Virus record (IMG/VR): IMGVR_UViG_3300020399_000003
Span: 9,994 to 73,993 of that record
Length of the DNA stretch: 64,000 nt
Direction: 5' to 3' (one strand)
Source of the DNA: a virus
Taxonomy: Duplodnaviria > Caudoviricetes
The first letter of the stretch is position 1, and each line of letters opens with the position of its first letter. Below, in pieces: positions 17,201-55,058 of the stretch. Under the pieces are notes generated by a model, which worked only from the letters and a program-made list of their open reading frames with translations, searched no databases and was not told the origin of the DNA. Made by a program: the position numbers and the translations under genes.

Positions 17201-20200
17201 TTTTTTAAGCTTAGTGCTCTCTACAAGATTTCTTGCTTTAGTTAATTTTTGATAAGCATGAACTGCAGCTAATACATTACTGTTATTAACAAGATCATTA
17301 AAATAAGTTTTTGAGTCACCATAAGTTTGTTTATCAATATCACTTCCAAAATTCTGAGCAACAGCTAACTCAAACTTCCATAGATTTTTTTCGTTGTAAG
17401 TTTTTGGTTCCCAGGATTTTAATAGGAAACGATCAACTTTACTTCCTTGAGGATTGATCTTGCCTTCTTGCATAATACGATGATGATTCTGCAGGCTATA
17501 AGTAAAATAAAATTTATCTAATTCATTACGATCATTAGCCTCTACAAGTCTTTTTAAGCTAGCTAATTTATCTCTATTAGAAGCTGCTTTAGACTCCATA
17601 TCATATTCATGCCATCTACCTTTTTTAATAGGTTCACCGTTTTTATCTATTTTACGTTTACCATCTTTATCTAATACATATACATATTCACCATTAGCAT
17701 CTTTTTCATATAATTCTTCAATACCCATTACTTGTTCTAGAACATCACTATGATCTTCAAATAGATCACTAACTATATCCATTGGTTGAGATTTACTCCA
17801 TTCAACCTTATGTAGTTTTTTCATGAGTCTTTGAACTTCTTGAGGTACTTCTCCAAAAGTACCGGGTACATCAGTTCGAATATCTCGTGGATTTTGTAGC
17901 GGACCAGCATTAGATTGAATATCTAAATTAAGTGTTGTAGTTAGATCCTTTACTGCAGCTAATCCCTCTTCTGAAGGTGGGCGCTTCTCATTAACCTTAA
18001 GTTGCCTATATCCAAATCCATCTTTATCAGCTTTAGACCCCTTAACATTATTGTTATAGGCTCTGCCTGGTACAGTAGCTTCATCGAATGCCCATTTATG
18101 TACATCTTTAATAAAGTAAGCTTCACTATCATTGCCTTGAGCTGTTTCAATAGCTGCCATTCCAAGAGCAGGAATTAGATGTTCATAGTATATATCTATT
18201 CCTTCTTGTGTTAATTCACCAGAAGCTTTAGTTGGGGATAAGTGTAGCATCTGGGATATGTCATATCCTATCTGTCTAGCTACATCGTTATAGCTGTATC
18301 CTAATTTACCTAGTTCAGTCTTCTCATTTTGATTTAATTTTTGAGTATTATTATAGAGAAAAGTTTCCATTTTATAGTCACTATCTCCAAATACATTATT
18401 ATCTGCAGTTCTTTGTCTCCATGTCATTGCACCAACCATCATTGAGAATATAACTTGATTAGGTAATATTCCTTGATGATTATCAGGATTTTTCGTATCT
18501 TCACGATACAGTAATGACAAGGGTTGTCTAATAGCGTAATTAGTTGTATCAATTAAATTTGCAAGTGGGACTGTAAGAGCTTTACCATCATTTGCATTAG
18601 GAGCTTGAATTACTGCTTCTTTTCCTTTAATAGCTAAAACTTTAAATTGGGTACCCGCATATTTAGCTTCATTTTCAGTAGAGCTACTATCTACTAATAC
18701 AACTGTATTTCCTTTTACAATTGCATGATAAAGAGTTTCTCTAAAACGTTTTGCAAATTTGCTGTACCTAGCAACTAAAACTTTAGCTGATTTAGGATCA
18801 AGTCCTAGATTTGTTAATGCTTTAGTTAGTGCTTTAGTAGATTCAAAATCAGCATCAGAAAGAGTATGAATACCTCCTTCTTTAACTCGTTTACCTATAT
18901 TAACTAAATCAGTAAATTTTTTCCCAACTAGGCCGAGAGCTTTATCTAAATTATCTTTGCTTACTGCTTTAAGAGCTGTTTGATATATTAGAGTAGCAGA
19001 CTCTACAAAATTCTTTCCTGCGAAGGAGAATTCGATTTGCTCTCCGGGCTTACCTTCTTCATCTTTAGTAGTTTCTCGCACATCAGGAGTAGATTCATCA
19101 GGAGATTTAGCAGATTCTTCAGGTGCTTTATCTTCTGTCCGAGTGTCATCTCCTGCTGGTTCATCAGTTTTGGATTCTGCGATACGTGATTCAAGACCTG
19201 CAATTGTTGTTTTGAGTTCGTCAATTTTGTCTCGAAGAATTTTTTTATTCTCATCACCTTCCCCCAGTTCATTAAATGCATCAACAGTAGTCTTTAATTC
19301 TGTTTTAGCTTCTTTTAATTGATTTTCTAAAGTAGAAGCTTCGTCTACTGTTTCATCAATTTTAATATCTTCTCGTTGTTCATCTGTTACTTCTTCAACA
19401 ACGCGAGGCATAGCCCCTCTTAGCTTAACTAGTGTGTCATATACGTTTTGCTTAGCTTTAATCTTAATTTCTTGATTAGCAGCTGTTTGGGCCATAGAAG
19501 TCTTCTTATAACCCTGCACTGTTCCCATAATTAACTTGCCATATTTAACTTCTCCTTCTAAATTATTAATAAGACCATCAGACTTATTAATAGTAAAGTT
19601 TGCAAATTTATGGGTTTTATCACTGATAAGAGTAACGAATTGTCCATTAGTTTTACGAGCTTCAAATGATGATCCTTCTTTATATTCAACTCCATTAGCT
19701 TTAGCTTGAGCTTTTGCATCTGCTTCAGTTAATGGCATAGAAACCGTTTTGTAGTTCATTTTGCGTACACCTCTCGGTGACTTTTCATCAATTGAACCTA
19801 CAACAACAGCACCCATACCAGAGGCTAAGTTAGGGATCATACCTTTAGCTCGTTTAAACTCAGCCAATTTACTACTTAAATTAGTCGCATGAGTAATCAT
19901 TTTCGAAGTAAGTGCTCTAATATGTCTGTCACGAAGTACAGGATCAGTTAGATTCTTATACGAATTAATAATTTCTTCATGGTATTTAGCTAAACCTTTC
20001 CACTTTTTAGTATCACCTTCTAAAATTTCTTCATGAACATCAGCCATTGTTTTTTCGGCTTGTTCTTCTTTTTCAGCTCTTTTAGCTTTTTCTATTTTTC
20101 TATCAACTTGATTTTGCCAATAGAGTGTATCTTCTGCAGGAGCATCTGGATCTGCTTTTGATTGCGCTAATTTTTTCTTTGTTTCATCAATGGATAATTT

Positions 20201-23200
20201 ATCATGCTCTTCTTCGCTATCCTCAATAGAACCAAATGTTTTACCCCCTTTACCGTCATCTTTAGGAGCATATTTTTTAACAAACTCATCAAATTTAGCT
20301 TGGACTAATTTTCGAGCCTCATCGCTCATATTGCGTTGAGTTAATTCTTGAAATTTTTCTAGTATCGTACGAGGAGTTTCATCAGGGCGAACTCGAGGAA
20401 TTAACTGGTCTACTGGAATAGTTTCAGTTAGACCTTTTATGCGTACATGCACTTTTCCATCTTTTAATAATCCAACAATTTCTTCAATTACATAGCCTTG
20501 TGTATCTTGACTTTCTTGATTTTCATCATTTTTTAGATCAACTATATCACCAGGTCCGTAATCTGGATGATCTTCAATAGGTATGTAGTTAGGATTATTT
20601 TTTGGCTCAGCAAGCATTGTTATTTCTTCTAAAATAGCATCAACCCCACTATCATCAATATCTTTTCCAGCATTTTTATTAATTTGAACATTAACTATAT
20701 TTTCTTGCTTACCTTCAAGTTGAGTTGTTACTTTTTCTAATTGAAGTTTTTGATATTCTTTTTCAGCTTTTAATAAACTTGGTTTAGCTGTTTCTTCTAA
20801 TACCTTTCCAATTTTATTTATTTTTTCTTGTACTTTTTCCGTAGCTATAATTTTTTGAATATCAGAAGATTTTTCATCAGCTTCAATTGTTTTAAGATCT
20901 TCTTCATATCCTTCAACTTCTTTATTTAATGCTTCCCCATATTGTGTATCTTTTACTTTAATCGTATCAGTATCTGACCGTCCTGCAAAAGTTTCTCTTA
21001 TACTATTTTCTTTAGTAACAACTTGAGGTAAACGACTTTGTAATGTATCTAATTCTGACCCTGAAGTATTTAAATTTTCTTCTAAATCTGTACTAATAGC
21101 ATTTATCACATCGTCTACAGTACCATTAGTTTGATTAGCTAAATCTTTATGTTTCTCAAATAATTTTTTAATTTTAGGATTTTTTGTTTCTACTTTTAAT
21201 TCACCACTTTTTGCATCAGTAGTAACATTAGGTAATTCAGCTATAGCTGATTCAACTTCTACAACTTCATTAGTTAGTTCTTCTAAACGCGCAAGATCTT
21301 TAGGATTCGTATCCTTTTCAAATTTTTCAATTCTTTTAATTTGTTCTTCTATTGCAGTTTTTTTCTTTTTTAATCCATCTTTTAATTGTTGTTCATTTGA
21401 TGGACTAAGAATTTTTTTAGTAACAGCTGTTGTTACATTTGCTGCAACAAATGTAGGTCCTAATGTTAGAGATCCAAGTCCTTCCATTAATGCGCCCTTA
21501 TATGTTGCTCTCCAATCAACTGTTTCTTTGGGTAGTTGTCCCTCAATAACTACTTCTGCACCACCTTGAACAGCTTCACCAGCTGCACCACTTACGAAAT
21601 CAACAGCTTTACCTCCAATTTTACCTAAAATTTTAATGCTAGTAGGAGTATTCTCTCCTATCTTTTTAGCTATTTTTCGAATCCACTGCACATGTCCTCC
21701 AGGAGGACCTTTACCAACTACTTTATCTAAATAACCTAAACTTATTTTTTGAGTAATTACTTTTAATGCCATCCAATTTTCAATAGAATTTTGAACTTCT
21801 GGCGTGTAATTTTCTTCCCCATGCTTTTCAATCCATGCTGCTTTAGCACGTTGAGATTCATCTCTAATAAAAGTAGTTAATGTGGCACTTCCTGTAAACA
21901 ATCCTCCAGCAACTAAAGCTAAAGAATACGCAGCACTACCTAATCCTTCTTTAGCATAAGCTGCTTTATGATTTTTTAACATTTCCCAAACAGCAGCAAG
22001 TTCACCATCTTTATCAGCAATTAAATCATAAATTGATTGACTCGCTTGAAATCCAGCATCATTTGTTGGGAAAAGAGCTCTCCATTTATCCGCGTATTCT
22101 GTAATCCTTTCTCTTTGTTCGTTGTTTTCATCAGCTTCTTTTTGTAATTTAGAAAGTACTCCAAATTTTGGATCGTTTTTAAATTGTTCTTGAGCAGTAG
22201 TTAAAGTTTTACTAGTAAGAATAGATCTATACATTTTAACATCTGCAGGTGTAAGATCAGTTTCTTTCTTATTAAGTAGTACTTGAGCCTGTTTTAATTT
22301 ATTATAATTATTAACTTTTCCTTGTAGACTTTGTTCTCCAACAATAGCACCTGCAACATATGCATCAAGACCACCAATACTTCCCATTAAATAGTTCTTA
22401 ACATCACCAATAGACCATTCTTTATAAGCACCATTAGCTTGATTTGCAGCATCTCGTGCAAAACGAGTAGCATAATAAGTTGCTTCTTCTTCAGTTAAAT
22501 TAGTTACGGGTTTACCATTAATAATTGCAACCCATGTACCATCTTCAAGTCCTAAAACATTAGGTCCTTTAGTTTTAACAACTGGAGAATTTATCTCCAT
22601 ATGTGGTGCTTCAGTTAATGCAAGAACACTAGCTTTTACATGTGGACTAACATCCATATTCATAATAGATAAACGTTGTTCTTCTTTAGGATCACTGCTA
22701 CTTACTAAATCATAATAATTAACATTAGATGGGGGCGGTAATGTAGATGGATCTGATTTTGCTCCTACTCCTATAGCTATACTATCTCCTGCTTTTCCTA
22801 AACCTTCTAATGCTTCACCTGGAGCTTTAGATCCACCTTTAACTAATGCATCTTTTGCATCAACCCATTTTTCTTTATCAGATAGTATTTCTCCAGATTT
22901 ACTTACTCCTTTTACAAAATTATTTTTTGCATCAACTAATCTATTGCCAAGTTCTTTAGCTATTTCAATATCAGCTAAAACATCTTTTGTTATTACTGTA
23001 GCGGTACCTTTAACTTTAGCAACTCCTGTATCAATAAGTTCATCTGCTTTATTAAGTATGTCATTACCAAATGCTTCTAATTGATCAAATACTTTAGCAG
23101 CATCAGCAGTAGAAGGAAGATCAGGAAGTTGATCTGTAATTGATTTAACAGCTTTTTCGGCACCTTTTAGTGCTAAATCTGGAGCTTGTGAAACACCACT

Positions 23201-42052: not shown

Positions 42053-42607
42053 TTATTCTCCCATAGAATGATCATGTTTTATACCTCTAATCTGGATAGT
42101 TAACCGATTATCTACAGCTGATTCACTAATAGGAGTAATTAAATGTCTTTCACAGTTATCAAAAATAACTAATCTACCAAATTGAGGCTTAACTACATGT
42201 TCTTTATTGTCATTATCAAGCCAAACTAAAAATCCACCCCAATCAATATTCCAAACGGTATTAAGATATAATGTCGCACTGAAACTATACTTTATATCAT
42301 CATGCATAATTAGATGACTTAATGGTTCCCATTTATAAAAAGTATAAGTTATTGTAAAGGTAGGTTTTATTTGAACAATAGGAGCTAAATATTGTTCTAA
42401 ATCTGCGTGAAGTTGCTGGCACCAAATATCCCTATTCCAGATACCCTGTAATTCTATTATACTAGGTGCTGTTCCCCACTTAACTTGTCTCCAATCGTCA
42501 TTAGGTGCATGCATATCATCCAATATATCGATTGCTGTTTGTGGTGTTAGCACATTTTCATACAGGAGTGTCATTTTTAACCTGTTGAATTTGTTGAACT
42601 TTGCCAT
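42053..42607 (-). CDS. 2OG-Fe(II) oxygenase, prolyl-4-hydroxylase-like
   Basis: MHDD, WNIDWGG, HLITPI, RLTIQ. Confidence 0.85.
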   Translation of the reverse strand: MAKFNKFNRLKMTLLYENVLTPQTAIDILDDMHAPNDDWRQVKWGTAPSIIELQGIWNRDIWCQQLHADLEQYLAPIVQIKPTFTITYTFYKWEPLSHLIMHDDIKYSFSATLYLNTVWNIDWGGFLVWLDNDNKEHVVKPQFGRLVIFDNCERHLITPISESAVDNRLTIQIRGIKHDHSMGE

Positions 42608-42947
42608 CCTTTAAAACATATTCATCACCTGCTGTAAGATAATGTACAAATACACCATCAAAACTAGGATGGTAATGGGGGTGAGTTCTCTCGCCATTAA
42701 CCTGATAATGACCAGATACCGTAGCTTCTATATTTAGAGATTTAGCATCCGTAATATTATAAGCATTTGTTAAGTAATACCGAATAACTTCATTCGCAAT
42801 CTTTTCATATTCTTTTACAAAATCAAATGTTGGGTCTAGAACAGCTTTATTTACAATTAGTTCCATCAATTTTATCTTTATATCTTCAGGGGTGTTTAAC
42901 TGCATTTTGCCAATCTTTGTGGTCCAATTTTTAGTTATTTTCATCAT
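42558..42947 (-). CDS. N-terminal half of a TIGR02466-like 2OG-Fe(II) oxygenase
   Basis: THPHYHPSFDGVFVHYLTAGDEY; lacks the DPRP/WHE half. Confidence 0.65.
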   Translation of the reverse strand: MMKITKNWTTKIGKMQLNTPEDIKIKLMELIVNKAVLDPTFDFVKEYEKIANEVIRYYLTNAYNITDAKSLNIEATVSGHYQVNGERTHPHYHPSFDGVFVHYLTAGDEYVLKDGKVQQIQQVKNDTPV

Positions 42948-43779
42948 AGATTGTCGATAAAGGTTTTACTATCGTAGAATTTGTTTTTGTCAGTATTCTG
43001 TAATTAATAACGATTGATACTCTTATTCCACTTCCTGTAAACGTATTAGACTCATGCCAAATACAGGCAGGATGCATCAGTAGAGTTCCAGTTACAGGAC
43101 TCCATGCAAGCGCTTTATTACAATAAGGATAATTTTGTGAGGGTCTTGGATCTTGAAGTATTAAATTACCAGAACCATCAGTATTACTAGTTTTTAAATT
43201 ATTATCTAAATCAACAGGATACCTATTATCATCTAGTACATATTCATTACCCGCTGTTAAATAGTAAATTAGCACACCATCAAATCCATGATGGTAGTGA
43301 GGGTAGGTTCTACCACCGTAAACTTGATGATTACCAAATGATCTAGCTTCTATATCAAGATCATCTATATTCGTAATACCGTACGCTTCAGTAATATAGT
43401 CTCTAATTATTTTATTTGAGATTTTCTCAAATTCTCTAATTGCGTGTGCATTAGGATCATCGTTAGGGTAAATAAAAATGTTTGAACCATCATTTGCTAT
43501 TACCTGTATAAGTTGTTTTCTTAATTCTTCACCAATTTCTATTTTATCCTCGCCTAATGGTGTTGTCCAATGATCTGTAATTTCCATTGAAATTGGATGA
43601 ATACCTTGTGCATACGGATCATTAACCTCCTTAGATTGATTTCTTTCAATCATAAAGGTTGGATCAGCCGTAGTAAACAAGACTTCATCACATTCAATTT
43701 CAACTGCTTTATGTAGATCAGAAGTAGCACCAGGGCAATTGATAGCCCCATTCGGAGGTATTACAAAGTAATCCTTCAC
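42931..43779 (-). CDS. 2OG-Fe(II) oxygenase (TIGR02466-like)
   Basis: TYPHYHH, LILQDPRP, WHESN, GIRVSIVIN. Confidence 0.82.
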   Translation of the reverse strand: MKDYFVIPPNGAINCPGATSDLHKAVEIECDEVLFTTADPTFMIERNQSKEVNDPYAQGIHPISMEITDHWTTPLGEDKIEIGEELRKQLIQVIANDGSNIFIYPNDDPNAHAIREFEKISNKIIRDYITEAYGITNIDDLDIEARSFGNHQVYGGRTYPHYHHGFDGVLIYYLTAGNEYVLDDNRYPVDLDNNLKTSNTDGSGNLILQDPRPSQNYPYCNKALAWSPVTGTLLMHPACIWHESNTFTGSGIRVSIVINYRILTKTNSTIVKPLSTIYDENN

Positions 43780-43988
43780 TGTCCTGGCTGGATTAACTCG
43801 GTTAGTACTCGATAATTCACAACAATTGCAACCCGTATTCCATTTCCTAAAAATGGATTTGATTCATGCCAGACATAGGAAGGATGGCATATTGCCATTC
43901 CAGACTTCGGTGTAATAACATGAGTCTTTTCGTTAATAGGATAATTAACTACTGGTCTAGGGTCTTGAAGTATTAGTTCTCCTGTCAC
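43776..43988 (-). CDS. C-terminal half of a TIGR02466-like oxygenase
   Basis: GTG start overlapping the rSAM stop; LILQDPRP, WHESNPF, GIRVAIVVN. Confidence 0.65.
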   Translation of the reverse strand: MTGELILQDPRPVVNYPINEKTHVITPKSGMAICHPSYVWHESNPFLGNGIRVAIVVNYRVLTELIQPGQ

Positions 43989-45325
43989 TTGTCCTCCTTA
44001 GCATATTTTAGGGTCTCAAACCCAAATACATCTTTGCGATATTCTGGTAATGTTTCATGTTCAATTCTATGAAGAACATGCCCGGTTATCTCAAATAGGG
44101 AAGCTGCAAGCCACACTGCGTTGTCACTATAGGAGTTGTCGCATGACAATTCCCACTCTTTACTACCTCCTGACAAGAATAAACAAGAACCTTGACACAA
44201 ATGAAGTACTGGGCAAGTTCTACATTCTTCCCTATCAGACCAATGCGTTCCTGATTTTATATCAACAGATTCCAAATCATCCATTGTCCCAATCTTATGT
44301 GAAACACCGCCTGGGTTATTACCAGACACCGTTACGTTTTGGCAAGTAGTCACGTTTCCATTCAGATCAACTGCCATTGTATTTGGTGAATCCATTCCGC
44401 ATTTTTGCATTAAAGAACTAGAAGGTTGTTGGGATTTTAAAGAACCAATAAAATTCTCAATCTTTTGATTCAAAATAACAAAATGTTTTATTTTCTTATC
44501 CATAATTTCCCTAAAAGCTTTTCTTCTATAGCCAATATGTTCTTCTTCCGATTGCCATGACATAGAAGCTCCGCCTTCATCATATGCATCAACAGTTCCA
44601 CCTTCACCAATTCCAATCATCCCAAAGTTATTTATCATCCACCTTTGAATTTCTGCCCTACTATCGTTATCTTTATGAATCATAGAATTAACAGAAAATT
44701 TATTTCTTGGAACTAATAGATTCCTTAATTTGAATAACCATTTCTTTTGTTCTGGATCATCCAGTGGATCTGGACCTCTTGTTTTTTGTCCTATAGCATC
44801 ATGTGAAATAGATACACCAAAATCATATTTCAGGATAAAATCAATTATTTCTTGATTTATAAGAGAACCATTTGTAATAACACTATAGGTTGCATCAGGA
44901 TATTTAGCATGTAGTTGTTCTGTAACTAATTTCATTTTATTAAAATACAAGAATGGTTCACCACCCCACATTTCAAAGTGTAATTCTTCTCCTACAGTAA
45001 CTGTGTCAAATTTCTTTATAAAACTTTCAATTTCATTAGCATCTACATCTTCTGGCGAATATGTATCATCTGTATTTCTAGGTACAAATCTTTGTGAGCA
45101 ATATTCGCAGGAATAATTGCATTTTAAACCAAGTTGTATTTTAATTTTTGTAAGATCACGTTTCCCTGCATCCATCTTATGAAATGGAATCCAATCTTTA
45201 AATGTGTCCTGCGGTACTACAATATCACCAGATTCGTAACGTAATTCAGACGTTTCATTATCGTAATCCAATACCATCTCGTTTCCGCTTTCTGGTGATT
45301 CTAAATGAAATTTAAATTTTGCCAT
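43985..45325 (-). CDS. Radical SAM enzyme with SPASM-type C-terminal domain
   Basis: CNYSCEYC, WGGEPF, ITNGSL, VSISHD, CGMD...GNVTTCQ, CRTCPVLHLCQGSC. Confidence 0.93.
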   Translation of the reverse strand: MAKFKFHLESPESGNEMVLDYDNETSELRYESGDIVVPQDTFKDWIPFHKMDAGKRDLTKIKIQLGLKCNYSCEYCSQRFVPRNTDDTYSPEDVDANEIESFIKKFDTVTVGEELHFEMWGGEPFLYFNKMKLVTEQLHAKYPDATYSVITNGSLINQEIIDFILKYDFGVSISHDAIGQKTRGPDPLDDPEQKKWLFKLRNLLVPRNKFSVNSMIHKDNDSRAEIQRWMINNFGMIGIGEGGTVDAYDEGGASMSWQSEEEHIGYRRKAFREIMDKKIKHFVILNQKIENFIGSLKSQQPSSSLMQKCGMDSPNTMAVDLNGNVTTCQNVTVSGNNPGGVSHKIGTMDDLESVDIKSGTHWSDREECRTCPVLHLCQGSCLFLSGGSKEWELSCDNSYSDNAVWLAASLFEITGHVLHRIEHETLPEYRKDVFGFETLKYAKEDK

Positions 45326-45326
45326 T

Positions 45327-46106
45327 TTATATCCTAATTAGTGGATCAATAGATTTACTTGTACTAATATTAAAATTAACAGTAATAGCTACACGAATAC
45401 CAGAACCCATAAATGGATTTGACTCATGCCATAAATAGCCTGGATGTAATAACGTCAATCCTACTTCTGGTTTAAGATGCCAAGCCTTTCTATTATACGG
45501 ATATGATATAGCAGGTCTAGGATCTAAAAGAATTAAATTACCCGGTTCTTCAAATTCTTTTGGATGTGTACTAGGAGCTGTAGGAGCAAATGATACAATT
45601 TTTACAGCTTTAGGTGCATCAATTAAAAAATCTTCCCAATTATTATTTTCCATACAATCTACATCAATACTAATCTCATCACCCAACGTAAGATATGTAA
45701 TTGCTACGCCATCATAGCCATGATGGTAGTGCGGATAAGTACGTTGTCCCCATGATTGAACATTACCAAAACATTTTGCTTCTATATCCATATCTGCCAC
45801 ATTTTCAACATTCCACGCATTAGCAACATAATAACGAATTAATTCAGCTATATTTTTCTTATATAGATCAACAAATTCATTATCGGTAGAATTAGCAAAT
45901 AAATTATAATAATGTTTATTGCTATATCCATTCTCCATTGGATGAACATGTTGATATGTTTGTTTAACAATACATTTAATTAAACCAATTCGTACTTCGT
46001 CTGGCAAATCAAAACTAATTAATCCAAGGCTACTTGACCAATCATCCCGCAGTTCAAACGAATTATTTAAAGGATGATCTATATTATTTAAATAATGGTC
46101 ATTCAT
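45327..46106 (-). CDS. 2OG-Fe(II) oxygenase (TIGR02466-like)
   Basis: TYPHYHH, LLDPRP, WHESNPF, GIRVAIT. Confidence 0.82.
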   Translation of the reverse strand: MNDHYLNNIDHPLNNSFELRDDWSSSLGLISFDLPDEVRIGLIKCIVKQTYQHVHPMENGYSNKHYYNLFANSTDNEFVDLYKKNIAELIRYYVANAWNVENVADMDIEAKCFGNVQSWGQRTYPHYHHGYDGVAITYLTLGDEISIDVDCMENNNWEDFLIDAPKAVKIVSFAPTAPSTHPKEFEEPGNLILLDPRPAISYPYNRKAWHLKPEVGLTLLHPGYLWHESNPFMGSGIRVAITVNFNISTSKSIDPLIRI

Positions 46107-46894
46107 TCTAATGGTTTCAATAGTTCATTGTAACCATGTGAAACAATTCTAAAATTAACTACAATACATACTCTTATTCCTTCACCAAGCCACGGATTTG
46201 TTTCATGCCATACATAATTGGGATGAACAATTGTTAACCCTACTCTTGGGCTAATAGTATGTACTTTTTCCCAATACGGATAGCTTATTGCAGGTCTTGG
46301 ATCTTGAAAAATTACTGTGTGACCTCCATGCCTAGCAGATTTTTCAAAATCTTTATTCATTTGTTCTTCTAAAGGTTTATCTTCATCACCCATTTTAAGA
46401 TAATGAACTAAAACACCATTAATATCTTGATGATAATGAGGATAAGTTCTAGCTCCCGGCTGTTGAACATTACCGAAACATCTTCCTTCAAGCTGCATAT
46501 CATCTGCTTGTTGAACTCCCCAACCCTTACGAATGTAATAACGGATCATCTGGCAAGCTATTTCCTTAAATCCTAAAATTGAATCTTTTGCAAAAGGAAA
46601 TTCATTAACAGAATCAAAAAGATTATAGTGAGTAGTAGCATAAAATCCTTTTGAATGAGCCATTCCATAAAATTCAGGATTACTTTCTTTAAGTTCAGAT
46701 AATGCTGTTTCTTTGTGTATTAAAACCTTTACTAGATCTTTCCGCATTTTTTCTGGCAGACTTGTATCAGACTCCATAAAAGGGGTAGTAAATTTCTGAT
46801 CAATCTTTGCAAAATTATCTAAAGGATGACTAGTCGTATCTAGCGGTTCATCTTTTAAGTTTTTGTAAAACTCAACATGTTCTGCTGTTTTCAT
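46103..46894 (-). CDS. 2OG-Fe(II) oxygenase (TIGR02466-like)
   Basis: TYPHYHQ, FQDPRP, WHETNPW, GIRVCIV. Confidence 0.82.
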   Translation of the reverse strand: MKTAEHVEFYKNLKDEPLDTTSHPLDNFAKIDQKFTTPFMESDTSLPEKMRKDLVKVLIHKETALSELKESNPEFYGMAHSKGFYATTHYNLFDSVNEFPFAKDSILGFKEIACQMIRYYIRKGWGVQQADDMQLEGRCFGNVQQPGARTYPHYHQDINGVLVHYLKMGDEDKPLEEQMNKDFEKSARHGGHTVIFQDPRPAISYPYWEKVHTISPRVGLTIVHPNYVWHETNPWLGEGIRVCIVVNFRIVSHGYNELLKPLE

Positions 46895-47649
46895 GATATC
46901 CTCATGGATTCTTCATCCGTGTATACATTCAAATTAGTTTGTACACTCCATCTTTGTTCAGTACCCCGATATGGATATACAGCATGATCTAACCATTTCG
47001 GAAAAATGTAATAGTCCCCTACAGTTGGTATAATAAAACTAGTAGTTTCTGGACTATAATCATCTAGCGTACCTATATATTGGCTTTGCCATCTAAATTG
47101 TAACAGTCCGTCTGTTAAAAATCTTCCATTATTGTCAGGATTTTCTCGTGATTTAAAAGCATCTTGTCTAATATGTTCTGGTACTTTAATGTAACAGATT
47201 GTTGCAAGGCCAGTTCTTGCCTTAGTATAATGAGCATGTATAGGATTGTAATCATTCTGATTCATTTTTACAGACCAACAACTATCAATAGTTATTGTCC
47301 TATGCTCGTTCTCAACATTTACATTCGGTCTACCCATAAAATTTTGGTATGCGATACCTCCTTCTATAATTTCACTACAAAAGTTTCTCATTAATGGGTG
47401 TTCAATATCTAAGTTTGATTGATCTCCAGATATATTAGCCGCTAATTCAGAATTTGCTGAATTGTCATTAACATTTGCAATATATTTATGTACATCCGTA
47501 ATAATATCTTTAGACATTCTACCTCTTAATACACTGATAGCATGAAATGATGTCATTTCTTTTGTTTCAGTAATTGGTGTAGTTACTGTAGTAGCTTGAT
47601 GCCCCTTATTATCTATTTTCATATTAGATAAGTTGGAAGAATATCCCAA
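46891..47649 (-). CDS. 2OG-Fe(II) oxygenase (divergent member)
   Basis: YNPIHAH, IFPKWLDHAVYPY, RWSVQTN. Confidence 0.8.
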   Translation of the reverse strand: MGYSSNLSNMKIDNKGHQATTVTTPITETKEMTSFHAISVLRGRMSKDIITDVHKYIANVNDNSANSELAANISGDQSNLDIEHPLMRNFCSEIIEGGIAYQNFMGRPNVNVENEHRTITIDSCWSVKMNQNDYNPIHAHYTKARTGLATICYIKVPEHIRQDAFKSRENPDNNGRFLTDGLLQFRWQSQYIGTLDDYSPETTSFIIPTVGDYYIFPKWLDHAVYPYRGTEQRWSVQTNLNVYTDEESMRIS

Positions 47650-48428
47650 TTCCTATTTTCGATATTAAAGTTAATAACAATAGCAACGCGGATACCAGCT
47701 TTTGTATGTGTTTGGGTTTCGTGCCAGACATAACCAGGATGAATGAGAGTCATTCCTACCTCTGGTTTAAATGTTTTTGCTTTGTTATTGTATGGCATTT
47801 TAATGGCAGGCCTTGGATCTAGCATAATCAAGTCTCCACTAAAATCAGAATTTATAGCCTCAGGATCTTTATCATCTATAGCTTTTCGACCACCCGCGGA
47901 GCGGGCTGTGATTTGTACTAAATGGTCATTGGTTGACATAGTCCAATCATCAGCATCACTAAATAACGGGTAATTAAATTCCTCTCCAACAGTTAAATAG
48001 TGAACCAAAACACCATCCCATGCATGATGGAAATGAGGGGCAGTTCTTCTACCAAATGGTCTTTGTACATTACCAAAGCACCGAGCTTTAATTGCTGCAT
48101 CCTCATCTAGCCCCCATGCTTTATGAATGTAAGTCCTAATGATTTTTGAAGAGATTTTTTCAAATTCTGCTAAAGCATCTATTTCATTAGCGTCTAATAC
48201 TGTTTTCTGATCGTCATAATCAAATAGATTATAAATTTTATCGTCAAACTTTTTTAAGGCTTCAGATGTATTATTTACTTTATTATAGGTGTGTTCTGTA
48301 AATACAATACCCTGTTTAGTTAAGATAACTATTAAAATTTGTCTTAACTCTTCGGGTAAATAAATATTGATACTACCAATGGGAGTTGTCCATTCGTGTT
48401 CAACATTTAGCTTGTCATGTAGGTCCAC
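47619..48428 (-). CDS. 2OG-Fe(II) oxygenase (TIGR02466-like)
   Basis: TAPHFHH, MLDPRP, WHETQ, GIRVAIVIN; GTG start overlapping the upstream stop. Confidence 0.82.
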   Translation of the reverse strand: MDLHDKLNVEHEWTTPIGSINIYLPEELRQILIVILTKQGIVFTEHTYNKVNNTSEALKKFDDKIYNLFDYDDQKTVLDANEIDALAEFEKISSKIIRTYIHKAWGLDEDAAIKARCFGNVQRPFGRRTAPHFHHAWDGVLVHYLTVGEEFNYPLFSDADDWTMSTNDHLVQITARSAGGRKAIDDKDPEAINSDFSGDLIMLDPRPAIKMPYNNKAKTFKPEVGMTLIHPGYVWHETQTHTKAGIRVAIVINFNIENRNWDILPTYLI

Positions 48429-49423
48429 TAGGCTACCGTATAATTAACATCCTGGACACCAGTCAGATTTCTAAAACCAATCTTCACCTTAAATGTATCA
48501 CCAGATTCTAATCCTAGGGCTGTTACTTTAAAAGTACCAAGACCATCAGTTATAGGTACTCGAGTTTTAGGTAAATACCCAGCAGTTGATTCTAAATAAG
48601 CTTCAGAAGTTCTCGCAATTAGTGCACCATCTTTATCTACCATTTTAAAAGCAACAGTATCGGTACCATCTGCATCAATACTAGTACCGCCAGAAGTAAC
48701 CGTAAACGTAGGAAAGGCTTCATTCATTTCACCTAAATAGTTGTAACCATCGCCAGAAGTCTTAAACAATGCTTTTTCATCTGTTCCAATTAGCCAATCA
48801 TTCATTATATTTGTACTAAAACCACAGCCACGATTATATTTCATCGTAATTGAACAATCTGTGAAATTGTCTGTGTTAAATGATTTATAGATAAAAAGAG
48901 CAGCAGGAGCATTTTGCTGACGAACTGATCGCAAAGGATGGGCCTTACTATAGTGTGTATTTGTTAGTGAATTGTAACTAGCACTCGCTGAGAAGTCTGG
49001 TTTTATGCCTATCACCCAACAAGCAACATCTGATTTTTCACCAGATGCAATTGATGGATCAGTTGGATCAACCCAGGAGAACCCTGTATTTCTAAACCAT
49101 GTATCTTTTAATTTTTCTGTATAGGTGTCACGAATATTAGCAGGTATCTGCGGTAAAAATGTTTCACCAGTAACCATAGTTCCATGAAGTATTCCCGTTG
49201 GTAACTTGTCGTGGAAAACTCCACTCATAGCTGCTGGAAATTCTCCCAAAGCAGGAGCTGCTGGCATATGTAAACTTTGTTCTGGAAAAGGTCTATTAGG
49301 CATTGCACCGTTAAACTCATCTTCGTCAATGGGAGACCAGACTTTCAAACATACAAAATCATCATTAACTAATAGTTCTAAGTGGACTCCCATACTTAAA
49401 CTATCATAAAGTTTTTTAAACAT
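48428..49423 (-). CDS. Hypothetical protein with C-terminal Ig-like (Big-1-like) beta sandwich
   Basis: C-terminal SIDADGTDTVAFKMVD...GYLPKTRVPITDGLGTFKVTALGL...VKIGF. Confidence 0.5.
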   Translation of the reverse strand: MFKKLYDSLSMGVHLELLVNDDFVCLKVWSPIDEDEFNGAMPNRPFPEQSLHMPAAPALGEFPAAMSGVFHDKLPTGILHGTMVTGETFLPQIPANIRDTYTEKLKDTWFRNTGFSWVDPTDPSIASGEKSDVACWVIGIKPDFSASASYNSLTNTHYSKAHPLRSVRQQNAPAALFIYKSFNTDNFTDCSITMKYNRGCGFSTNIMNDWLIGTDEKALFKTSGDGYNYLGEMNEAFPTFTVTSGGTSIDADGTDTVAFKMVDKDGALIARTSEAYLESTAGYLPKTRVPITDGLGTFKVTALGLESGDTFKVKIGFRNLTGVQDVNYTVA

Positions 49424-49435
49424 TTTGTTCCTTTC

Positions 49436-49966
49436 TTAGCAATTACAAGCACAGGCACAAGCACATGCCCCACCAAAACAAGCCGGACCGTTAGTTGTGC
49501 AATTAGGATGATTGTTGCAGTTATTTGGAGAATTATTACAATTAGTCTTACCATTACCATTTGTTGCGCAATTGGGATGATTATTACAATTACTAGAGGA
49601 GTTGTTACAATTAGTAAATCCTCCTCCATTAACTGAACAGTTAGGCATACCATTCCCATTAGTTGTACAATTTGCATGCCCAGAACCATTGGTTGTACAG
49701 TTAGCATGATTAGTACAGTTAGTTTGCCAGGTATTATCTCCTCTTAAATACTTTCCAGCACTAGGAGAGGCTCCCATTCGTGCAGGAACTAATGTACCAC
49801 TACTAATGTTATCCGCATTAGTGGTATCTGTTGTAGCTGAAGCAACCAGAGCAGGTTTGTTTAATAAGGTATTCCAATCTGATGCAGGGGCATTGTCTAA
49901 TGCTCCTCCAATAACATCACCGCCACTATCTAAAAGTCGTGCTATTTCATCTGCTCTAGTAGTCAT
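49436..49966 (-). CDS. Tail-fibre-like protein with Asn-Cys repeat C-terminus (copy 4)
   Basis: LLNKP, TTNADNISSGTL, YLRGDNTW, then 15 Cys; ends CACACNC. Confidence 0.75.
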   Translation of the reverse strand: MTTRADEIARLLDSGGDVIGGALDNAPASDWNTLLNKPALVASATTDTTNADNISSGTLVPARMGASPSAGKYLRGDNTWQTNCTNHANCTTNGSGHANCTTNGNGMPNCSVNGGGFTNCNNSSSNCNNHPNCATNGNGKTNCNNSPNNCNNHPNCTTNGPACFGGACACACACNC

Positions 49967-49978
49967 TAATTAACCTCT

Positions 49979-50488
49979 TTAACAATTGCAGGCACAAGCA
50001 GCGCAAGCACCATTATGTGTACAATTGGGATAGCTAGTACAGTTGCCGCTAGAATTATTACAGTTAGTTTTACCATTGCCATTCGTAGCGCAATTACTAT
50101 GATTACTACAATTACTAGAAGTATTATTACAGTTAGTTTTGCCATTACCATTAGTTGCACAATTAGTATGACCACTACCATTAACGGCACAGTTTGCCAT
50201 ACCGTTACCATTCGTTGTACAATTTGCATGATTGGTACAATTAGTCTGCCAAGTTCCATCGCCTCGTAAGTATTTTCCAGCACTAGCAGAACCGCCTACC
50301 CGTGCAACATTTAATGTACCTGTGCTGATATTATCTGCATTAGTGGTATCAGTAGTTGCACTAGCCACAAGTGCTGGCTTATTTAAAAGGGTATTCCAGT
50401 CACTAGCAGGCATATTATCTAAAGCACCTACAATAACATCTCCACCGCTATCTAAAAGCCTAGCTATCTCTGATGCTCTAGTTGTCAT
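49979..50488 (-). CDS. Tail-fibre-like Asn-Cys repeat protein (copy 3)
   Basis: Same leader; 14 Cys; ends CAACACNC. Confidence 0.75.
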   Translation of the reverse strand: MTTRASEIARLLDSGGDVIVGALDNMPASDWNTLLNKPALVASATTDTTNADNISTGTLNVARVGGSASAGKYLRGDGTWQTNCTNHANCTTNGNGMANCAVNGSGHTNCATNGNGKTNCNNTSSNCSNHSNCATNGNGKTNCNNSSGNCTSYPNCTHNGACAACACNC

Positions 50489-50500
50489 TAATTAATCTCC

Positions 50501-51010
50501 TCAACAATTACAAGCACAAGCTGCCGGAGCACCATTTGTTGTACAATTAGGGTGATTCGTGCAGTTACCGCTAGAGTTATTACAGTTGGTATAAGTATTG
50601 CCATTAGTGGCACAATTAGCATGATTGGTGCAGTTACTAGAAGAGTTATTGCAATTAGTTTTACCATTGCCGTTTGTTGTACAATTAGCATAACCATTTC
50701 CGTTAGTCGCACAATTAGCGTGACCACCGCCATTTGTGGCGCAATTCCCGGTATTAGTACAATTGGTTTGCCATGTTCCATCTCCCCTTAAATATTTCCC
50801 TGAAGTTGGAGACCCACCTAATCGAGCAGCATCTAACGTACCTGAGGTTATATTATCTGCATTAGTAGTATCTGTCGTAGCAGACGCAACTAATGCAGGT
50901 TTATTTAGCAAAGTAGTCCAATCTGATGGAGGAGCATTATCTAATGCACTACTCTCCACATCGCCACCACTATCTAGAAGATTTGCTATTTCTGTTGATT
51001 TAGTTGTCAT
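50501..51010 (-). CDS. Tail-fibre-like Asn-Cys repeat protein (copy 2)
   Basis: Same leader; 13 Cys; ends CACNC. Confidence 0.75.
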   Translation of the reverse strand: MTTKSTEIANLLDSGGDVESSALDNAPPSDWTTLLNKPALVASATTDTTNADNITSGTLDAARLGGSPTSGKYLRGDGTWQTNCTNTGNCATNGGGHANCATNGNGYANCTTNGNGKTNCNNSSSNCTNHANCATNGNTYTNCNNSSGNCTNHPNCTTNGAPAACACNC

Positions 51011-51022
51011 TAATTTAGTTCC

Positions 51023-51613
51023 TTAACAATTACAAGCGCAAACACCTGGAGTCAAAACAACCGCTGTTCCAACAACACTTAATGTGCCGCCATAAGTATT
51101 ATTTGCAGATCCACTTGCGGATGTAAGCGTCCCCGCACAATTAGTACAGTTAGTGTGACTGCTAGTTCCAGAACAATTAGCACAATTAGCCATACCATTT
51201 CCATTTGTTGCACAATTCCCAAAACTATCTGTGCCTGAACAATTAGTACAATTACCATGATTCGTACAATTAGTAGTCCACGCCCCGTCTCCTCGAAGAT
51301 AATTTCCTGAACCACCAGTGCCACTTCCCATTCTAGCAACATTTAATGTTCCGGTACTAATGTTGTCAGCCGAAGTAGTATCTGTAGTAGCAGAAGCCAC
51401 TAAACCAGCAACTTGAGCATTCGGAAGATCTACAATTCGTGCGTTAGGCAACGTTCCTGTATTAATATTACTAGCATCACGAGTATCTGTATCTGCATGA
51501 GCAGGTTTATTTAATAATGTCGTCCAATCAGAGGCAGGAACATTGTCTAAGCCAGCTGAGATAACATCCCCGTCTGCTTCTAGTAAGTTTGCGAGTTCTC
51601 TAGCTTTGCTCAT
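51023..51613 (-). CDS. Tail-fibre-like Asn-Cys repeat protein (copy 1, divergent)
   Basis: MSKARELANLL, duplicated NIxTGTLxxAR repeat, NCTNC motifs; 11 Cys; ends CACNC. Confidence 0.75.
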   Translation of the reverse strand: MSKARELANLLEADGDVISAGLDNVPASDWTTLLNKPAHADTDTRDASNINTGTLPNARIVDLPNAQVAGLVASATTDTTSADNISTGTLNVARMGSGTGGSGNYLRGDGAWTTNCTNHGNCTNCSGTDSFGNCATNGNGMANCANCSGTSSHTNCTNCAGTLTSASGSANNTYGGTLSVVGTAVVLTPGVCACNC

Positions 51614-51625
51614 TGTTTTATCCTT

Positions 51626-51982
51626 TTAGAAATTTATAAATTCCATTGTATCTAAAATAGTAGCCCCTGTTGCTAGTTCTATCGTAGTACCATTAGTAGC
51701 TTCAAAATCGTTAGCTGCACCATTTAATAATTTAACACCATTCATAAATACCTGTACTCGTCCTACAACATATACATGAGGAAAAGTTGTTTGACCTGCT
51801 GTAGGAACAACAATGGTTTCAGAATAGTCATCAGTTGCTGTTAATGTATGACCTCCTGCTGTTGAACCATCATGTACAACTAAAGTATCTTTATCAGTAT
51901 CTACAGTAACTTCACGAAGAGCTCCTGTAAATGTAGCATGCTGAGCAGTCGTTCCGCCTCTTAACTGTAGTTTTTTAGCCAT
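51626..51982 (-). CDS. Virion/tail protein with Mtd_N-like N-terminus
   Basis: LQLRGGTTAQHATFTGALREVTVDTDKDTLVVHDGSTAGG; C-terminus VQVFMNGVKL shared with the next ORF. Confidence 0.7.
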   Translation of the reverse strand: MAKKLQLRGGTTAQHATFTGALREVTVDTDKDTLVVHDGSTAGGHTLTATDDYSETIVVPTAGQTTFPHVYVVGRVQVFMNGVKLLNGAANDFEATNGTTIELATGATILDTMEFINF

Positions 51983-52622: not shown

Positions 52623-55058
52623 CTAAAATCCAAGGACTAGAGCTTTGCCCGTACTTGTTATTGTTGGGTTCATAATTGTTGTTGATGAGGTTATGTTGTA
52701 TCCTAAAATATCTAAATCACCAGCAAGTTGAGGAGTAGCATCAGCTGATACCTCTATAGAAACAGTTCCAAAGGATAATTGACCAGCACCGTCAGTCTTC
52801 ATATATTGATCTAGTAAACCATCCGCTTGCGGGTGTTTTAACCCATCAATAATAACATCACCTGAACCATTAGGAGTAATCGCTATATCACCATTAGACG
52901 CACTGATTATCGAATTGCTATTTACATCTAAATCTCCACCTAATTCAGGACTTGCATCTTCTACTATATTTCCAAGACCAGGAGCAATACCAGTCCAAGC
53001 ACTACCCGTATAATATTTAAGAAGGTTGTTGGTACTGTCGTACCAAAGATCTCCTGCTGAAGGAGAACCTGGGGAAGAAGCATTTATAGAATATTCATCA
53101 CTGTATCTATTAATAGAGGATTCATTAAGTGCAGCAGTTGTAATATTTCCTGCTATGCCTGCACAAGTCGTAACATTAGCACTAATTGCTGCTAAAGAAT
53201 TCATGTCAGTTACGTTCTGAGCCGTACCCAAGACGTTCATATCATTTACTACATCTGCGGTGCCCAAAATATTCATATCGTTTACAAAATCAGCCGAGGC
53301 TATAACATTTAAATCACTAACGAAATCAGCTGTTGCTACGATATTTAAGTCACTGACAAAATCAGCGGTTCCAACAATTGCTAGGTCTGCTATTGTTGCC
53401 GCATTCCCCAAGAGTCCAATTTCAGTTGATACACCGGCTACACTTGTAACATCACTAGATATTCCCGCTACGGTAGTCGTATTTGCTGAAATGCCTGCAA
53501 CTGTTGTAACATTTGCAGCAACTGCTGCTACGCTTGTTACATTAGCAGCAATCCCGGATACTATTCCAATTTCAGTAGTGTCTCCAGCAACGACTCCAAT
53601 TTCTGTGGTATCCCCAGCTACAGTTGTGACGTTAGCAGCGATTCCAGCAACGGTAGTAATATTTGCTGAATTAGAATTAACGGCATTAATATTTGTTGAA
53701 TTAGAGTTTACGCCTGATACAGCAGAAGAAATAGCGTTAACTCCTGACACGGCAGTAGAAATTCCTGCTACTGATGTAACATTGCTAGAAATTCCTGCAA
53801 CTGTTGTGACATTACCGGATATTCCTGCCACTGTTGTAATATCAGCACTCGCTCCTGCCAATGCACTAATATTATTAGTAGGAGTAATTTGTCCTGCTAC
53901 TGTATCAATATCAGCAATATTATCTGCACAAGATGTTATATCTCCATTACCAGTAGAACTATCTAATGCATCAGCAATGCTTCCTAGATCCTCGTTAAAA
54001 ACAACATCTCCTGCAACGACATTAATATTAAGCTGATCAGATGCACTTGGCGCAGTTGCTTGCCACACTGTACCAAAACTACGAAGTTCATTACTGGTCG
54101 TATTAAAGTAAAGATCACCTGCATCGTTATCAGTGCTAGGCTCAGTTGCGGAAATCCGATATCTATTTGCAAAATTATCTACATTAGTTATATTCGAGGC
54201 TACCGTAGCTATATTAGCCGCAGCAGTAGTTTGAGCTACCGTAGTAACATTTGCAGCTATCCCAGCCACAGTCGTAACATTACCTGAAATAGGCGCTACT
54301 ATATTTACGTTAGATATATTAGTTCCAACTGTATCTACATTCGTTATGGAGTTTGCTACTGTATCAATTTCTGATGTGGCTTCATTTAGATCATTTGCAA
54401 CAGTTTCAATTTCAGAAACTGCTTCATTTAAATCATTAGCTGTAGTAATAATTTTAGCTATATCTGATGCACAAATATTGATGTTAGCTTGGTTTGCTTG
54501 AACTGCATTAATATTCGTTTGATCCGCAGTTGTAGGTGTAGTGCGTAACCAGGAAGTATTCCCAAGGTCATAGACCATAAGTACATTATTAGTCGTATTG
54601 AAATAGGCTGTTCCATCTAATAACGCATCTCCGTCATTATTAAGAGTAGGATCTGAAGCTTTATCCCCTAACCAGCGATCATCAAAATTATCATAACTCG
54701 TAGCGGCATTAGTTTCAGATGTAGCAGCAGCAGCTGCGCTGCTGGCTGCGTTAGCTACTGTCTCTGCTAATGCATCCGTTAACATAGCTGTTGTTACACG
54801 TAATTCACAACGATCATCTAAAACAAAAGTACTTGCTGTTGTTCCTTCTTGTGCACGAAGAACAGTAAGTGTATTTGAGCCAATAGCTTCACATTTAATA
54901 ACTTCAGTAGCAGTAGCACTAACTAAAGTTAAATAACAATAATCTCCAACTCCTAAAGTAGGAAATACTGAAGCATCAGTTACAAGAATACTTGTAGCAG
55001 CAGCAGATATAGGCCCTGGTAATGTTGTAGTTGCATTATTTGAATATTTAACTCCCAC
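52623..55058 (-). CDS. Long tail fibre / fibritin-like protein
   Basis: Decad repeats (NVTTVAGIxx), 12-mer and 14-mer repeats, three GDLY/WY knob modules. Confidence 0.75.
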   Translation of the reverse strand: MGVKYSNNATTTLPGPISAAATSILVTDASVFPTLGVGDYCYLTLVSATATEVIKCEAIGSNTLTVLRAQEGTTASTFVLDDRCELRVTTAMLTDALAETVANAASSAAAAATSETNAATSYDNFDDRWLGDKASDPTLNNDGDALLDGTAYFNTTNNVLMVYDLGNTSWLRTTPTTADQTNINAVQANQANINICASDIAKIITTANDLNEAVSEIETVANDLNEATSEIDTVANSITNVDTVGTNISNVNIVAPISGNVTTVAGIAANVTTVAQTTAAANIATVASNITNVDNFANRYRISATEPSTDNDAGDLYFNTTSNELRSFGTVWQATAPSASDQLNINVVAGDVVFNEDLGSIADALDSSTGNGDITSCADNIADIDTVAGQITPTNNISALAGASADITTVAGISGNVTTVAGISSNVTSVAGISTAVSGVNAISSAVSGVNSNSTNINAVNSNSANITTVAGIAANVTTVAGDTTEIGVVAGDTTEIGIVSGIAANVTSVAAVAANVTTVAGISANTTTVAGISSDVTSVAGVSTEIGLLGNAATIADLAIVGTADFVSDLNIVATADFVSDLNVIASADFVNDMNILGTADVVNDMNVLGTAQNVTDMNSLAAISANVTTCAGIAGNITTAALNESSINRYSDEYSINASSPGSPSAGDLWYDSTNNLLKYYTGSAWTGIAPGLGNIVEDASPELGGDLDVNSNSIISASNGDIAITPNGSGDVIIDGLKHPQADGLLDQYMKTDGAGQLSFGTVSIEVSADATPQLAGDLDILGYNITSSTTIMNPTITSTGKALVLGF

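What the first reader, a model, noticed from the sequence alone, without database searches (positions are those of the whole stretch)
49436..51613. Asn-Cys repeat grammar and invariant CACNC terminus in four tandem paralogs
After a conserved YLRGDxxWxT hinge, nearly every Cys is preceded by Asn (9-11 NC dipeptides per protein). Units are 10 aa (NCxxNGxGxx), 7 aa (NCNNSSx) and 6 aa (NCxNHx), in similar order in three copies. The fourth copy uses NCxNC and 9-10 aa units. All end in C-A-C-N-C-stop. Synonymous sites differ between copies, so the duplications are old and the pattern appears maintained by selection. The leaders (LLNKP, TTNADNIxxGTL, YLRGD) resemble tail-fibre shaft motifs. Co-assembly as heterotrimers, or alternative tips, is an inference.
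Basis: partly seen in the sequence, partly recalled or inferred. Interest (0 to 1): 0.75.

Follow-up and report, generated by a model that had tools for sequence, protein, structure and literature searches.

The report
Cysteine-tailed phage fibres with radical-SAM cassette
Four neighbouring genes of a marine N4-like phage encode small tail-fibre proteins with tips full of Asn-Cys pairs, and across more than a hundred phages and prophages such tips sit beside a radical-SAM enzyme, so the phage probably modifies its host-binding fibre tips chemically.

Summary
Four tandem minus-strand genes (176, 169, 169 and 196 aa) have no Cys before the YLRGDxxW hinge. After it they have 11, 11, 11 and 9 Asn-Cys pairs in 6-, 7- and 10-residue units, and all end in CACNC. 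Synonymous sites are saturated and dN/dS is 0.05-0.14.

The heads are ordinary tail-fibre shaft repeats. The genes head an operon that continues with a conserved 331-aa partner protein, six 2OG-Fe(II) oxygenases and a radical SAM/SPASM enzyme.

Of 96 distinct loci of this enzyme clade with enough upstream DNA, 93 have an upstream fibre-type gene carrying a C-x-C-x-C run. The run is terminal in 83. The background rate is 11 of 6130 ORFs. Loci include viral contigs, prophages and cultured Ralstonia and Achromobacter phages.

Only the Asn-Cys enrichment and the terminal run are conserved across these loci. The repeat number is not.

Most likely the tails are substrates of the radical SAM enzyme, probably for Cys-to-Asn/Asp thioether cross-links. 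The chemistry is inferred, not shown.

I found no paper describing this for phages. Earlier notes of this scan report the same system on other DNA.

The parts
51023..51613 (-). Fibre-type paralog D (196 aa). It has an extra shaft repeat, 9 Asn-Cys pairs and ends in VCACNC.
50501..51010 (-). Fibre-type paralog C (169 aa). It has 11 Asn-Cys pairs and ends in CACNC.
49979..50488 (-). Fibre-type paralog B (169 aa). It has 11 Asn-Cys pairs and ends in CACNC.
49436..49966 (-). Fibre-type paralog A (176 aa). It has 11 Asn-Cys pairs and ends in CACACACNC.
48428..49423 (-). Conserved partner protein (331 aa). It has an N-terminal domain with no match in solved structures and a C-terminal Ig-like domain. 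A homolog follows the Cys-tailed gene in most related loci (74 of 96 by phmmer).
47619..48428 (-). 2OG-Fe(II) oxygenase paralog 1 (PF13759, 25.6 bits, just under the cut-off; PHROG 81).
46891..47649 (-). 2OG-Fe(II) oxygenase paralog 2 (PF13759, 50.8 bits).
46103..46894 (-). 2OG-Fe(II) oxygenase paralog 3 (PF13759, 36.4 bits). This is the type present in every locus of the marine group.
45327..46106 (-). 2OG-Fe(II) oxygenase paralog 4 (PF13759, 29.1 bits).
43985..45325 (-). Radical SAM/SPASM enzyme (446 aa). It has the CX3CX2C motif and the seven-Cys SPASM motif.
42931..43779 (-). 2OG-Fe(II) oxygenase paralog 5 (PF13759, 26.0 bits; PHROG 81).
42053..42607 (-). Sixth 2OG-Fe(II) oxygenase, of another type (PF13640; weak FlmC-like hit).
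51626..51982 (-). Small Mtd_N-domain tail protein directly upstream. A homolog precedes the Cys-tailed gene in all marine loci.
52623..55058 (-). Main tail fibre (811 aa). It sets the tail-module context.

Best explanation
The four genes encode small, probably trimeric tail fibrils of a marine N4-like podovirus. Each has a shaft-type head, a YLRGDxxW hinge and a Cys/Asn-rich tip that ends in a C-x-C-x-C run.

The tip is the substrate of the co-transcribed radical SAM/SPASM enzyme. That enzyme most likely joins Cys sulfur to a carbon of neighbouring Asn, Asp or Ala residues, giving ranthionine- or sactionine-type thioethers. These bonds would give the tip a cross-linking that does not depend on redox state.

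The 2OG-Fe(II) oxygenases are accessory and probably hydroxylate tip residues. The 331-aa protein is a non-enzymatic partner, either a chaperone/presenter or a tip-bound structural protein.

What is shown: the grammar, its conservation, purifying selection, the fibre identity of the heads, and the genomic coupling. What is inferred: that the enzyme acts on the tail, and which chemistry it performs.
For: One operon:
- All genes are on the same strand, with 12-nt spacers or overlapping stop and start codons from 51613 down to 42053.

The enzyme:
- The SPASM model TIGR04085 scores 36.9 against a cut-off of 27.
- The best full-length resemblances are to anSME, PapB, QhpD-type and Cys-rich-peptide maturases.
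- The CX3CX2C motif and the seven SPASM Cys are invariant across relatives that are 41-75% identical to the window's enzyme.

The coupling:
- Every marine locus with a CxCxC-ended protein that reaches far enough has the partner protein, at least one oxygenase and the rSAM gene.
- The 54 fibre loci that share only the hinge have none of these.
- Of 96 distinct rSAM loci with at least 4.5 kb upstream, 83 have an upstream ORF ending in a run and 93 have a run somewhere. The background rate is 11 of 6130 ORFs.
- The heads of these substrates are unrelated to one another: collagen repeats, gp34-like, fib811-like. The tail is therefore the shared element.

The free C-terminus:
- In Achromobacter phage JWF a Hint domain starts at the last Cys of the run. 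Self-cleavage would again leave the run at the C-terminus.

Acceptor residues:
- The residues between the Cys are mainly N, then A and D.
- Asn and Asp are known ranthionine acceptors: NxxcA Cys-Asn, freyrasin Cys-Asp, QhpC (PMC8326336).
- A SPASM enzyme has been shown to cross-link a large Cys-rich repeat protein (CrpC/CrpA, PMC13692751).
Against: - There are no biochemical or proteomic data, so no modification has been seen.
- The enzyme falls far below the cut-off of every NCBIfam equivalog, so its reaction cannot be read from membership.
- The AlphaFold2 monomer model of the fibre is poor (pLDDT 55.9, tail below 50), so no structural support exists.
- Two of the 96 loci (L201, L244) show no upstream Cys run at all. 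A third, Ralstonia phage RSP15 (L085), has only two Cys near the fibre's end (...NCQCGN), not a run of three.
- Gene linkage cannot tell whether the enzyme acts on the tail, on the partner protein or on both.
- Oxygenases are absent from most distant loci (median 0), so their role is not part of the core system.
Confidence: 0.6

Rival explanations
1. The Cys runs bind metal ions or form disulfides along the axis of a trimeric fibre, by analogy with the His-x-His iron sites of the T4 gp37 needle. On this reading the radical SAM enzyme acts on something else, such as the partner protein or a small molecule.
For: - Alternating Cys would all face one side of a beta-strand.
- Some substrates carry collagen triple-helix repeats, which implies three parallel chains.
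- The gp37 analogy rests on my own knowledge of the published structure, not on a test here.
Against: - The near-universal linkage of the run to this enzyme clade is hard to explain if the tail is not its target.
- No HxH motifs are present.
- The partner protein has no conserved residues outside its Ig-like domain that would mark a modification site.
Confidence: 0.15
2. The enzyme does modify the tail, but by other SPASM chemistry: Cys to formylglycine as in anSME, or epimerisation as in YydG.
For: - The best NCBIfam hit is the anaerobic sulfatase maturase (6e-20).
- The best solved relatives include anSME.
Against: - The score is 71.6 against a cut-off of 349.
- The sulfatase motif C/S-x-P/A-x-R is absent from the tails.
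- Cys-rich substrates of SPASM enzymes are, where tested, thioether substrates (PMC8326336, PMC13692751).
Confidence: 0.15
3. The four proteins are true RiPP precursors. The fibre-like head would be a leader that is cut off, and the Cys-rich core would be released as a diffusible peptide.
For: - The layout is a conserved head plus a variable Cys-rich core in tandem paralogs beside a maturase.
- One distant locus has three substrates of only 81-87 aa.
Against: - The heads are real fibre modules with a variable number of shaft repeats. Elsewhere they are 300-750 aa fibres with collagen or gp34-like parts.
- The genes sit in the tail module.
- I recognised no protease or exporter among the annotated neighbours.
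Confidence: 0.07

Closest known systems
CrpA/CrpC of Methanococcus voltae (PMC13692751)
   Same: A SPASM radical SAM enzyme acts on a large protein with a conserved N-terminal part and C-terminal Cys repeats. A companion protein is encoded in the same cluster.
   Different: - CrpC belongs to TIGR04463. The window's enzyme scores 38 against a cut-off of 525 for that family.
- The CrpA motifs are C-X-X-Q/D in 17-residue repeats, not Asn-Cys units with a terminal CxCxC run.
- It is archaeal, not viral, and the paper does not mention phages.
QhpC/QhpD of quinohemoprotein amine dehydrogenase
   Same: A radical SAM/SPASM enzyme installs Cys-Asp and Cys-Glu thioethers as a structural feature of a small Cys-rich protein subunit, not of a secreted peptide.
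   Different: - The TIGR03906 score is 53 against a cut-off of 453.
- The substrate there is an enzyme subunit that also carries a quinone cofactor.
- It has no repeats and no terminal run.
Ranthipeptides: PapA/PapB (freyrasin) and NxxcA/NxxcB
   Same: - Cys donors are interleaved with Asp or Asn acceptors.
- Asn is a proven beta-thioether acceptor in NxxcA.
- PapB can also use a C-terminal carboxylate (PMC12373016). This is of interest because the phage run is always C-terminal.
   Different: - The PapB model scores 62 against a cut-off of 340.
- Those substrates are short peptides with cleavable leaders and CX3D or NxxC spacing.
- Here Asn lies directly before Cys, and the substrate is a fibre protein.
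T4 gp37 long tail fibre tip (His-x-His iron sites)
   Same: An alternating ligand-type residue near the distal end of a trimeric phage fibre.
   Different: - Here the alternating residue is Cys, not His.
- There is no sequence or fold match.
- gp37 needs no radical SAM enzyme.
- The comparison comes from memory and was not tested here.

Membership tests
Radical SAM / SPASM enzymes (for ORF 43985-45325) | CX3CX2C cluster motif in a radical SAM core | tested here: met
   PF04055 matches at 6.8e-10. C69, C73 and C76 are invariant in 9 relatives.
Radical SAM / SPASM enzymes (for ORF 43985-45325) | SPASM domain with seven Cys for two auxiliary clusters | tested here: met
   TIGR04085 scores 36.9 against a cut-off of 27. 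The Cys pattern C309-x13-G-x4-C328, C368-x2-C-x5-C-x3-C381 and C395 is invariant.
PapB-type ranthipeptide maturases (NF047865) | Whole-protein score above the curated cut-off | tested here: not met
   62.3 bits against a cut-off of 340.
Anaerobic sulfatase maturases (TIGR03942) | Score above the cut-off, and a substrate motif C/S-x-P/A-x-R | tested here: not met
   71.6 bits against a cut-off of 349. The motif does not occur in the tails.
TIGR04463 (CrpC family) | Score above the curated cut-off | tested here: not met
   38.1 bits against a cut-off of 525.
Phage tail fibre proteins (for the four paralogs) | Homology of the head to shaft repeats of long fibres | tested here: met
   The shaft unit is repeated in an 865-aa protein carrying PF13884. 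The hinge is shared with 360-2900 aa fibre ORFs.
Phage tail fibre proteins (for the four paralogs) | Position in the tail module | tested here: met
   The genes lie directly after the 811-aa fibre and the Mtd_N protein.
Phage tail fibre proteins (for the four paralogs) | Presence in virions and trimeric assembly | not testable with these tools
   No proteomics is available. Only monomer folding was on offer, and that model is poor.
RiPP precursor peptides | A leader that is removed, with a protease or exporter in the cluster | tested here: inconclusive
   I recognised no protease or transporter among the neighbours in Pfam, PHROGs or NCBIfam. Cleavage itself cannot be tested.
2OG-Fe(II) oxygenases PF13759 | Gathering score, two conserved His and the 2OG-binding Arg | tested here: met
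   Three of five paralogs score above 27 bits and two just below. H153, H230 and R241 are invariant. The acidic ligand is replaced (H-x-H, or H-x-T in paralog 2).

The most novel reading that the evidence does not exclude
Phages use their own radical SAM enzyme, here together with a battery of 2OG oxygenases, to convert the Asn-Cys tip of tail fibres into a thioether-cross-linked and hydroxylated structure. This structure may act as a covalent knot between the three chains. If so, the host-binding end of the virion would be a RiPP-like, non-proteinogenic surface, and the tandem paralogs would diversify it.
Probability: 0.4. Interest if true: 0.9.

Novelty: new variant of a known kind. Interest (0 to 1): 0.8.

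Why it matters
Tail-fibre tips decide host range and must survive outside the cell. If phages cross-link or otherwise modify these tips enzymatically, that would be the first radical-SAM modification of a virion protein.

It would also mean that receptor-binding structures cannot be read from sequence or predicted folds alone. It would give a function to the radical SAM genes, and to some of the many 2OG oxygenase genes, of marine and freshwater phages.

The enzyme clade is large: 237 clusters at 50% identity. The system occurs in cultured phages (JWF, RSP15), so the question can be tested directly.

Tried and rejected
- **Fibre structure prediction.** The AlphaFold2 monomer of paralog B, run with a 43-sequence alignment, gave pLDDT 55.9 with the tail below 50. 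It is unusable.
- **Family searches on the four paralogs.** Pfam, PHROGs and NCBIfam gave no hits.
- **Searches against cultured phages.** blastn and tblastn with the paralogs gave no match. The low-complexity filter may have contributed.
- **Solved structures.** A PDB sequence search with the family profile found nothing.
- **Partner protein.** Foldseek and VIA-align matched only the C-terminal Ig-like domain. BFVD gave only uncharacterised phage proteins. The ESM Atlas gave nothing usable.
- I took context from the search for related loci instead.
- **Oxygenase number versus substrate composition.** The correlations are weak and not corrected for shared ancestry, so I do not rely on them.
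- **Simple DNA repeat as the cause of the terminus.** Rejected, because the terminal residues use different synonymous codons.
- **Literature.** Eight searches found no description of the phage system.

Full report
**What is there.** The window is most of a 73,993-bp IMG/VR virus record rated complete. It carries a 4506-aa virion RNA polymerase, an SU10-type portal, a major head protein and a large terminase, so it is an N4-like podovirus. G+C is about 35%.

On the minus strand, after an 811-aa tail fibre and three small tail proteins, lie four tandem ORFs of 196, 169, 169 and 176 aa. They are separated by 12-nt spacers that hold ribosome-binding sites.

- None of the four has a Cys before the YLRGDxxW hinge. 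After it they have 11-16 Cys, of which 9-11 follow Asn.
- Three copies share the unit order 6-10-10-10-7-6-10-7-6. The consensus units are NCTNHx, NC[AT]TNGxGxx and NCNNSSx. The fourth copy uses NCx plus 9-residue units.
- All end in CACNC. The terminal residues are written with different synonymous codons, so the terminus is not a DNA repeat artefact.
- Among copies A-C, dS is saturated (above 1.2) while dN is 0.14-0.19, giving dN/dS of 0.05-0.14. The duplications are old and the proteins are under purifying selection.

**The family.**
- A protein search found 46 relatives, all from marine metagenomes. With those found on viral contigs there are 60 distinct members.
- 56 end in CACNC and 3 in CNCNC. 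There is one Cys in all the heads together.
- 363 of 607 tail Cys follow Asn, against 99 +/- 8 in shuffles.
- The invariant parts are the N-terminus, the shaft unit, the hinge followed by NCTNHxNC, and the terminal run.
- The middle of the tail is hypervariable. The shortest members have tails of only 23-26 residues. The NC spacing seen in the window is therefore not a family constant.

**The heads are fibre shafts.**
- The LVASATTDTTNAxNIxxGTL..AR unit varies in copy number between members.
- It recurs many times in an 865-aa protein with the Peptidase_S74 fibre chaperone domain.
- The hinge occurs in long fibre ORFs on 54 other viral loci.

**The context is the main result.** Directly downstream, with overlapping or abutting stop and start codons, come:
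- a 331-aa protein with no family hit;
- four PF13759 2OG-Fe(II) oxygenases;
- a 446-aa radical SAM/SPASM enzyme;
- a fifth PF13759 oxygenase and a sixth oxygenase of another type.

The enzyme has the CX3CX2C motif and the full seven-Cys SPASM motif. It resembles anSME, PapB, QhpD-type and Cys-rich-peptide maturases, but it is far below every curated cut-off.

**The same gene order recurs in the marine relatives.**
- In all 25 viral loci that encode a family member, the order is: Mtd_N protein, 1-3 Cys-tailed proteins, partner protein, 1-5 oxygenases, rSAM. This holds wherever the contig reaches far enough.
- None of these genes accompanies the 54 fibre loci that lack the Cys tail.

**The linkage reaches far beyond this family.** Scans with the enzyme found 468 relatives on viral contigs and 206 in bacterial genomes. 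The bacterial hits are mostly Limnohabitans, Burkholderiaceae, Comamonadaceae and alphaproteobacteria, and are presumably prophages.
- Of 143 distinct loci, 96 have at least 4.5 kb upstream.
- 83 of those have a same-strand ORF ending in a C-x-C-x-C run, and 93 have a run somewhere.
- Among all other ORFs the rate is 11 of 6130. Six of those 11 are family members on truncated contigs, and three are antisense artefacts of a substrate gene.
- The 86 distinct distant substrates are 81-752 aa long and have unrelated heads: collagen triple-helix repeats, T4 gp34-like parts, or the N-domain of the window's 811-aa fibre.
- They keep the same grammar. 548 of 810 Cys follow Asn, against 108 +/- 10 in shuffles. 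92% of Cys lie in the last 120 residues.

**Cultured phages and clade size.**
- Ralstonia phage RSP15 has the order side tail fibre (ending ...NCQCGN), partner homolog, unknown protein, rSAM.
- Achromobacter phage JWF has a fibre with the run NCNCDCNCNCSC followed at once by a Hint domain. Self-cleavage would leave the run at the new C-terminus.
- The enzyme clade comprises 237 clusters at 50% identity with E up to 1e-30.

**The partner protein.** It folds with confidence (pLDDT 85.8).
- Its last 95 residues form an Ig-like domain (Z about 11 to GH2 and intimin Ig domains).
- The N-domain matched nothing in solved structures. It matched only uncharacterised phage proteins in BFVD.
- Across 97 distinct homologs, only Ig-domain residues are conserved at 85% or more. 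It is unlikely to be an enzyme.
- Its position after the fibre gene is that of a fibre chaperone or tip protein. This is an inference.

**Mechanism.**
- Because the heads of the substrates are unrelated, the shared C-terminal Asn/Asp-Cys run is the most likely recognition and reaction site.
- SPASM enzymes with Cys-rich substrates form thioethers wherever this has been tested. Asn (NxxcA) and Asp (freyrasin, QhpC) are proven acceptors (PMC8326336).
- PapB can also link a Cys to a C-terminal residue through its carboxylate (PMC12373016).
- A SPASM enzyme has been shown to cross-link a large Cys-repeat protein (PMC13692751).
- I therefore favour thioether cross-linking of the tip, within a chain or between the three chains. 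The oxygenases would add hydroxyl groups.
- None of this chemistry is shown. Formylglycine formation, epimerisation, or a purely metal-binding tail remain open.

**Prior knowledge.** Eight literature searches found nothing on this phage system. A 2010 survey noted tandem dioxygenase arrays in cyanophages and dioxygenase operons that include tail-collar proteins (PMC2938197).

Earlier notes of this scan describe the same system on this genome and on many other genomes. One of them gave me the CrpC paper, which I then read myself.

**Verdict.** The grammar is real and selected, and the fibre reading is right. The important point is the conserved coupling of Asn-Cys fibre tips to a radical SAM maturation cassette. 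This window holds the richest version I saw, with four substrates and six oxygenases.

Noticed in passing
window 11222-24742 (-): A 4506-aa ORF. Its C-terminal third matches the N4-type virion RNA polymerase (PHROG 2206, 1e-144), and residues 143-276 match a transglycosylase. It is about 1000 aa longer than the 3406-position PHROG profile.
   Followed up: partly
L086 5787-7238 (Achromobacter phage JWF gp028); also L211, L147, L193, L245: Some fibres carry the Cys run internally, directly followed by a Hint self-cleaving domain whose first Cys is the last Cys of the run.
   Followed up: partly
L235 2004-3851 (Ferrovibrio MAG): A 615-aa substrate combines collagen triple-helix repeats (PF01391, 3.5e-23) with a terminal CNCNCNCNCNCDCNC run. 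This implies that three parallel chains end in the run.
   Followed up: no
L109 1868-2651: Three tandem substrates of only 81-87 aa. Each has a fibre-type N-terminal motif and an NCNCxCNC end. They are the smallest form of the system that I saw.
   Followed up: no
L226, L237, L224: A second, shorter radical-SAM-like ORF (340 aa, E about 1e-14 to the window's enzyme) sits between the partner protein and the main enzyme in some alphaproteobacterial loci.
   Followed up: no
L010 7590-8993 and L106 5995-7398: On one contig the rSAM gene is split into ORFs of 242 and 160 aa. Three near-identical contigs have it intact. This is either a sequencing error or a pseudogene.
   Followed up: no
window 42558-42947 (-): A 129-aa ORF with no family hit lies between the fifth and sixth oxygenases. 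I did not test that.
   Followed up: no
window 49396-50781 (-) and 50015-51026 (+): Long ORFs in other frames overlap the Asn-Cys coding region. They are by-products of the repetitive AAY-TGY composition, and I did not treat them as genes.
   Followed up: partly
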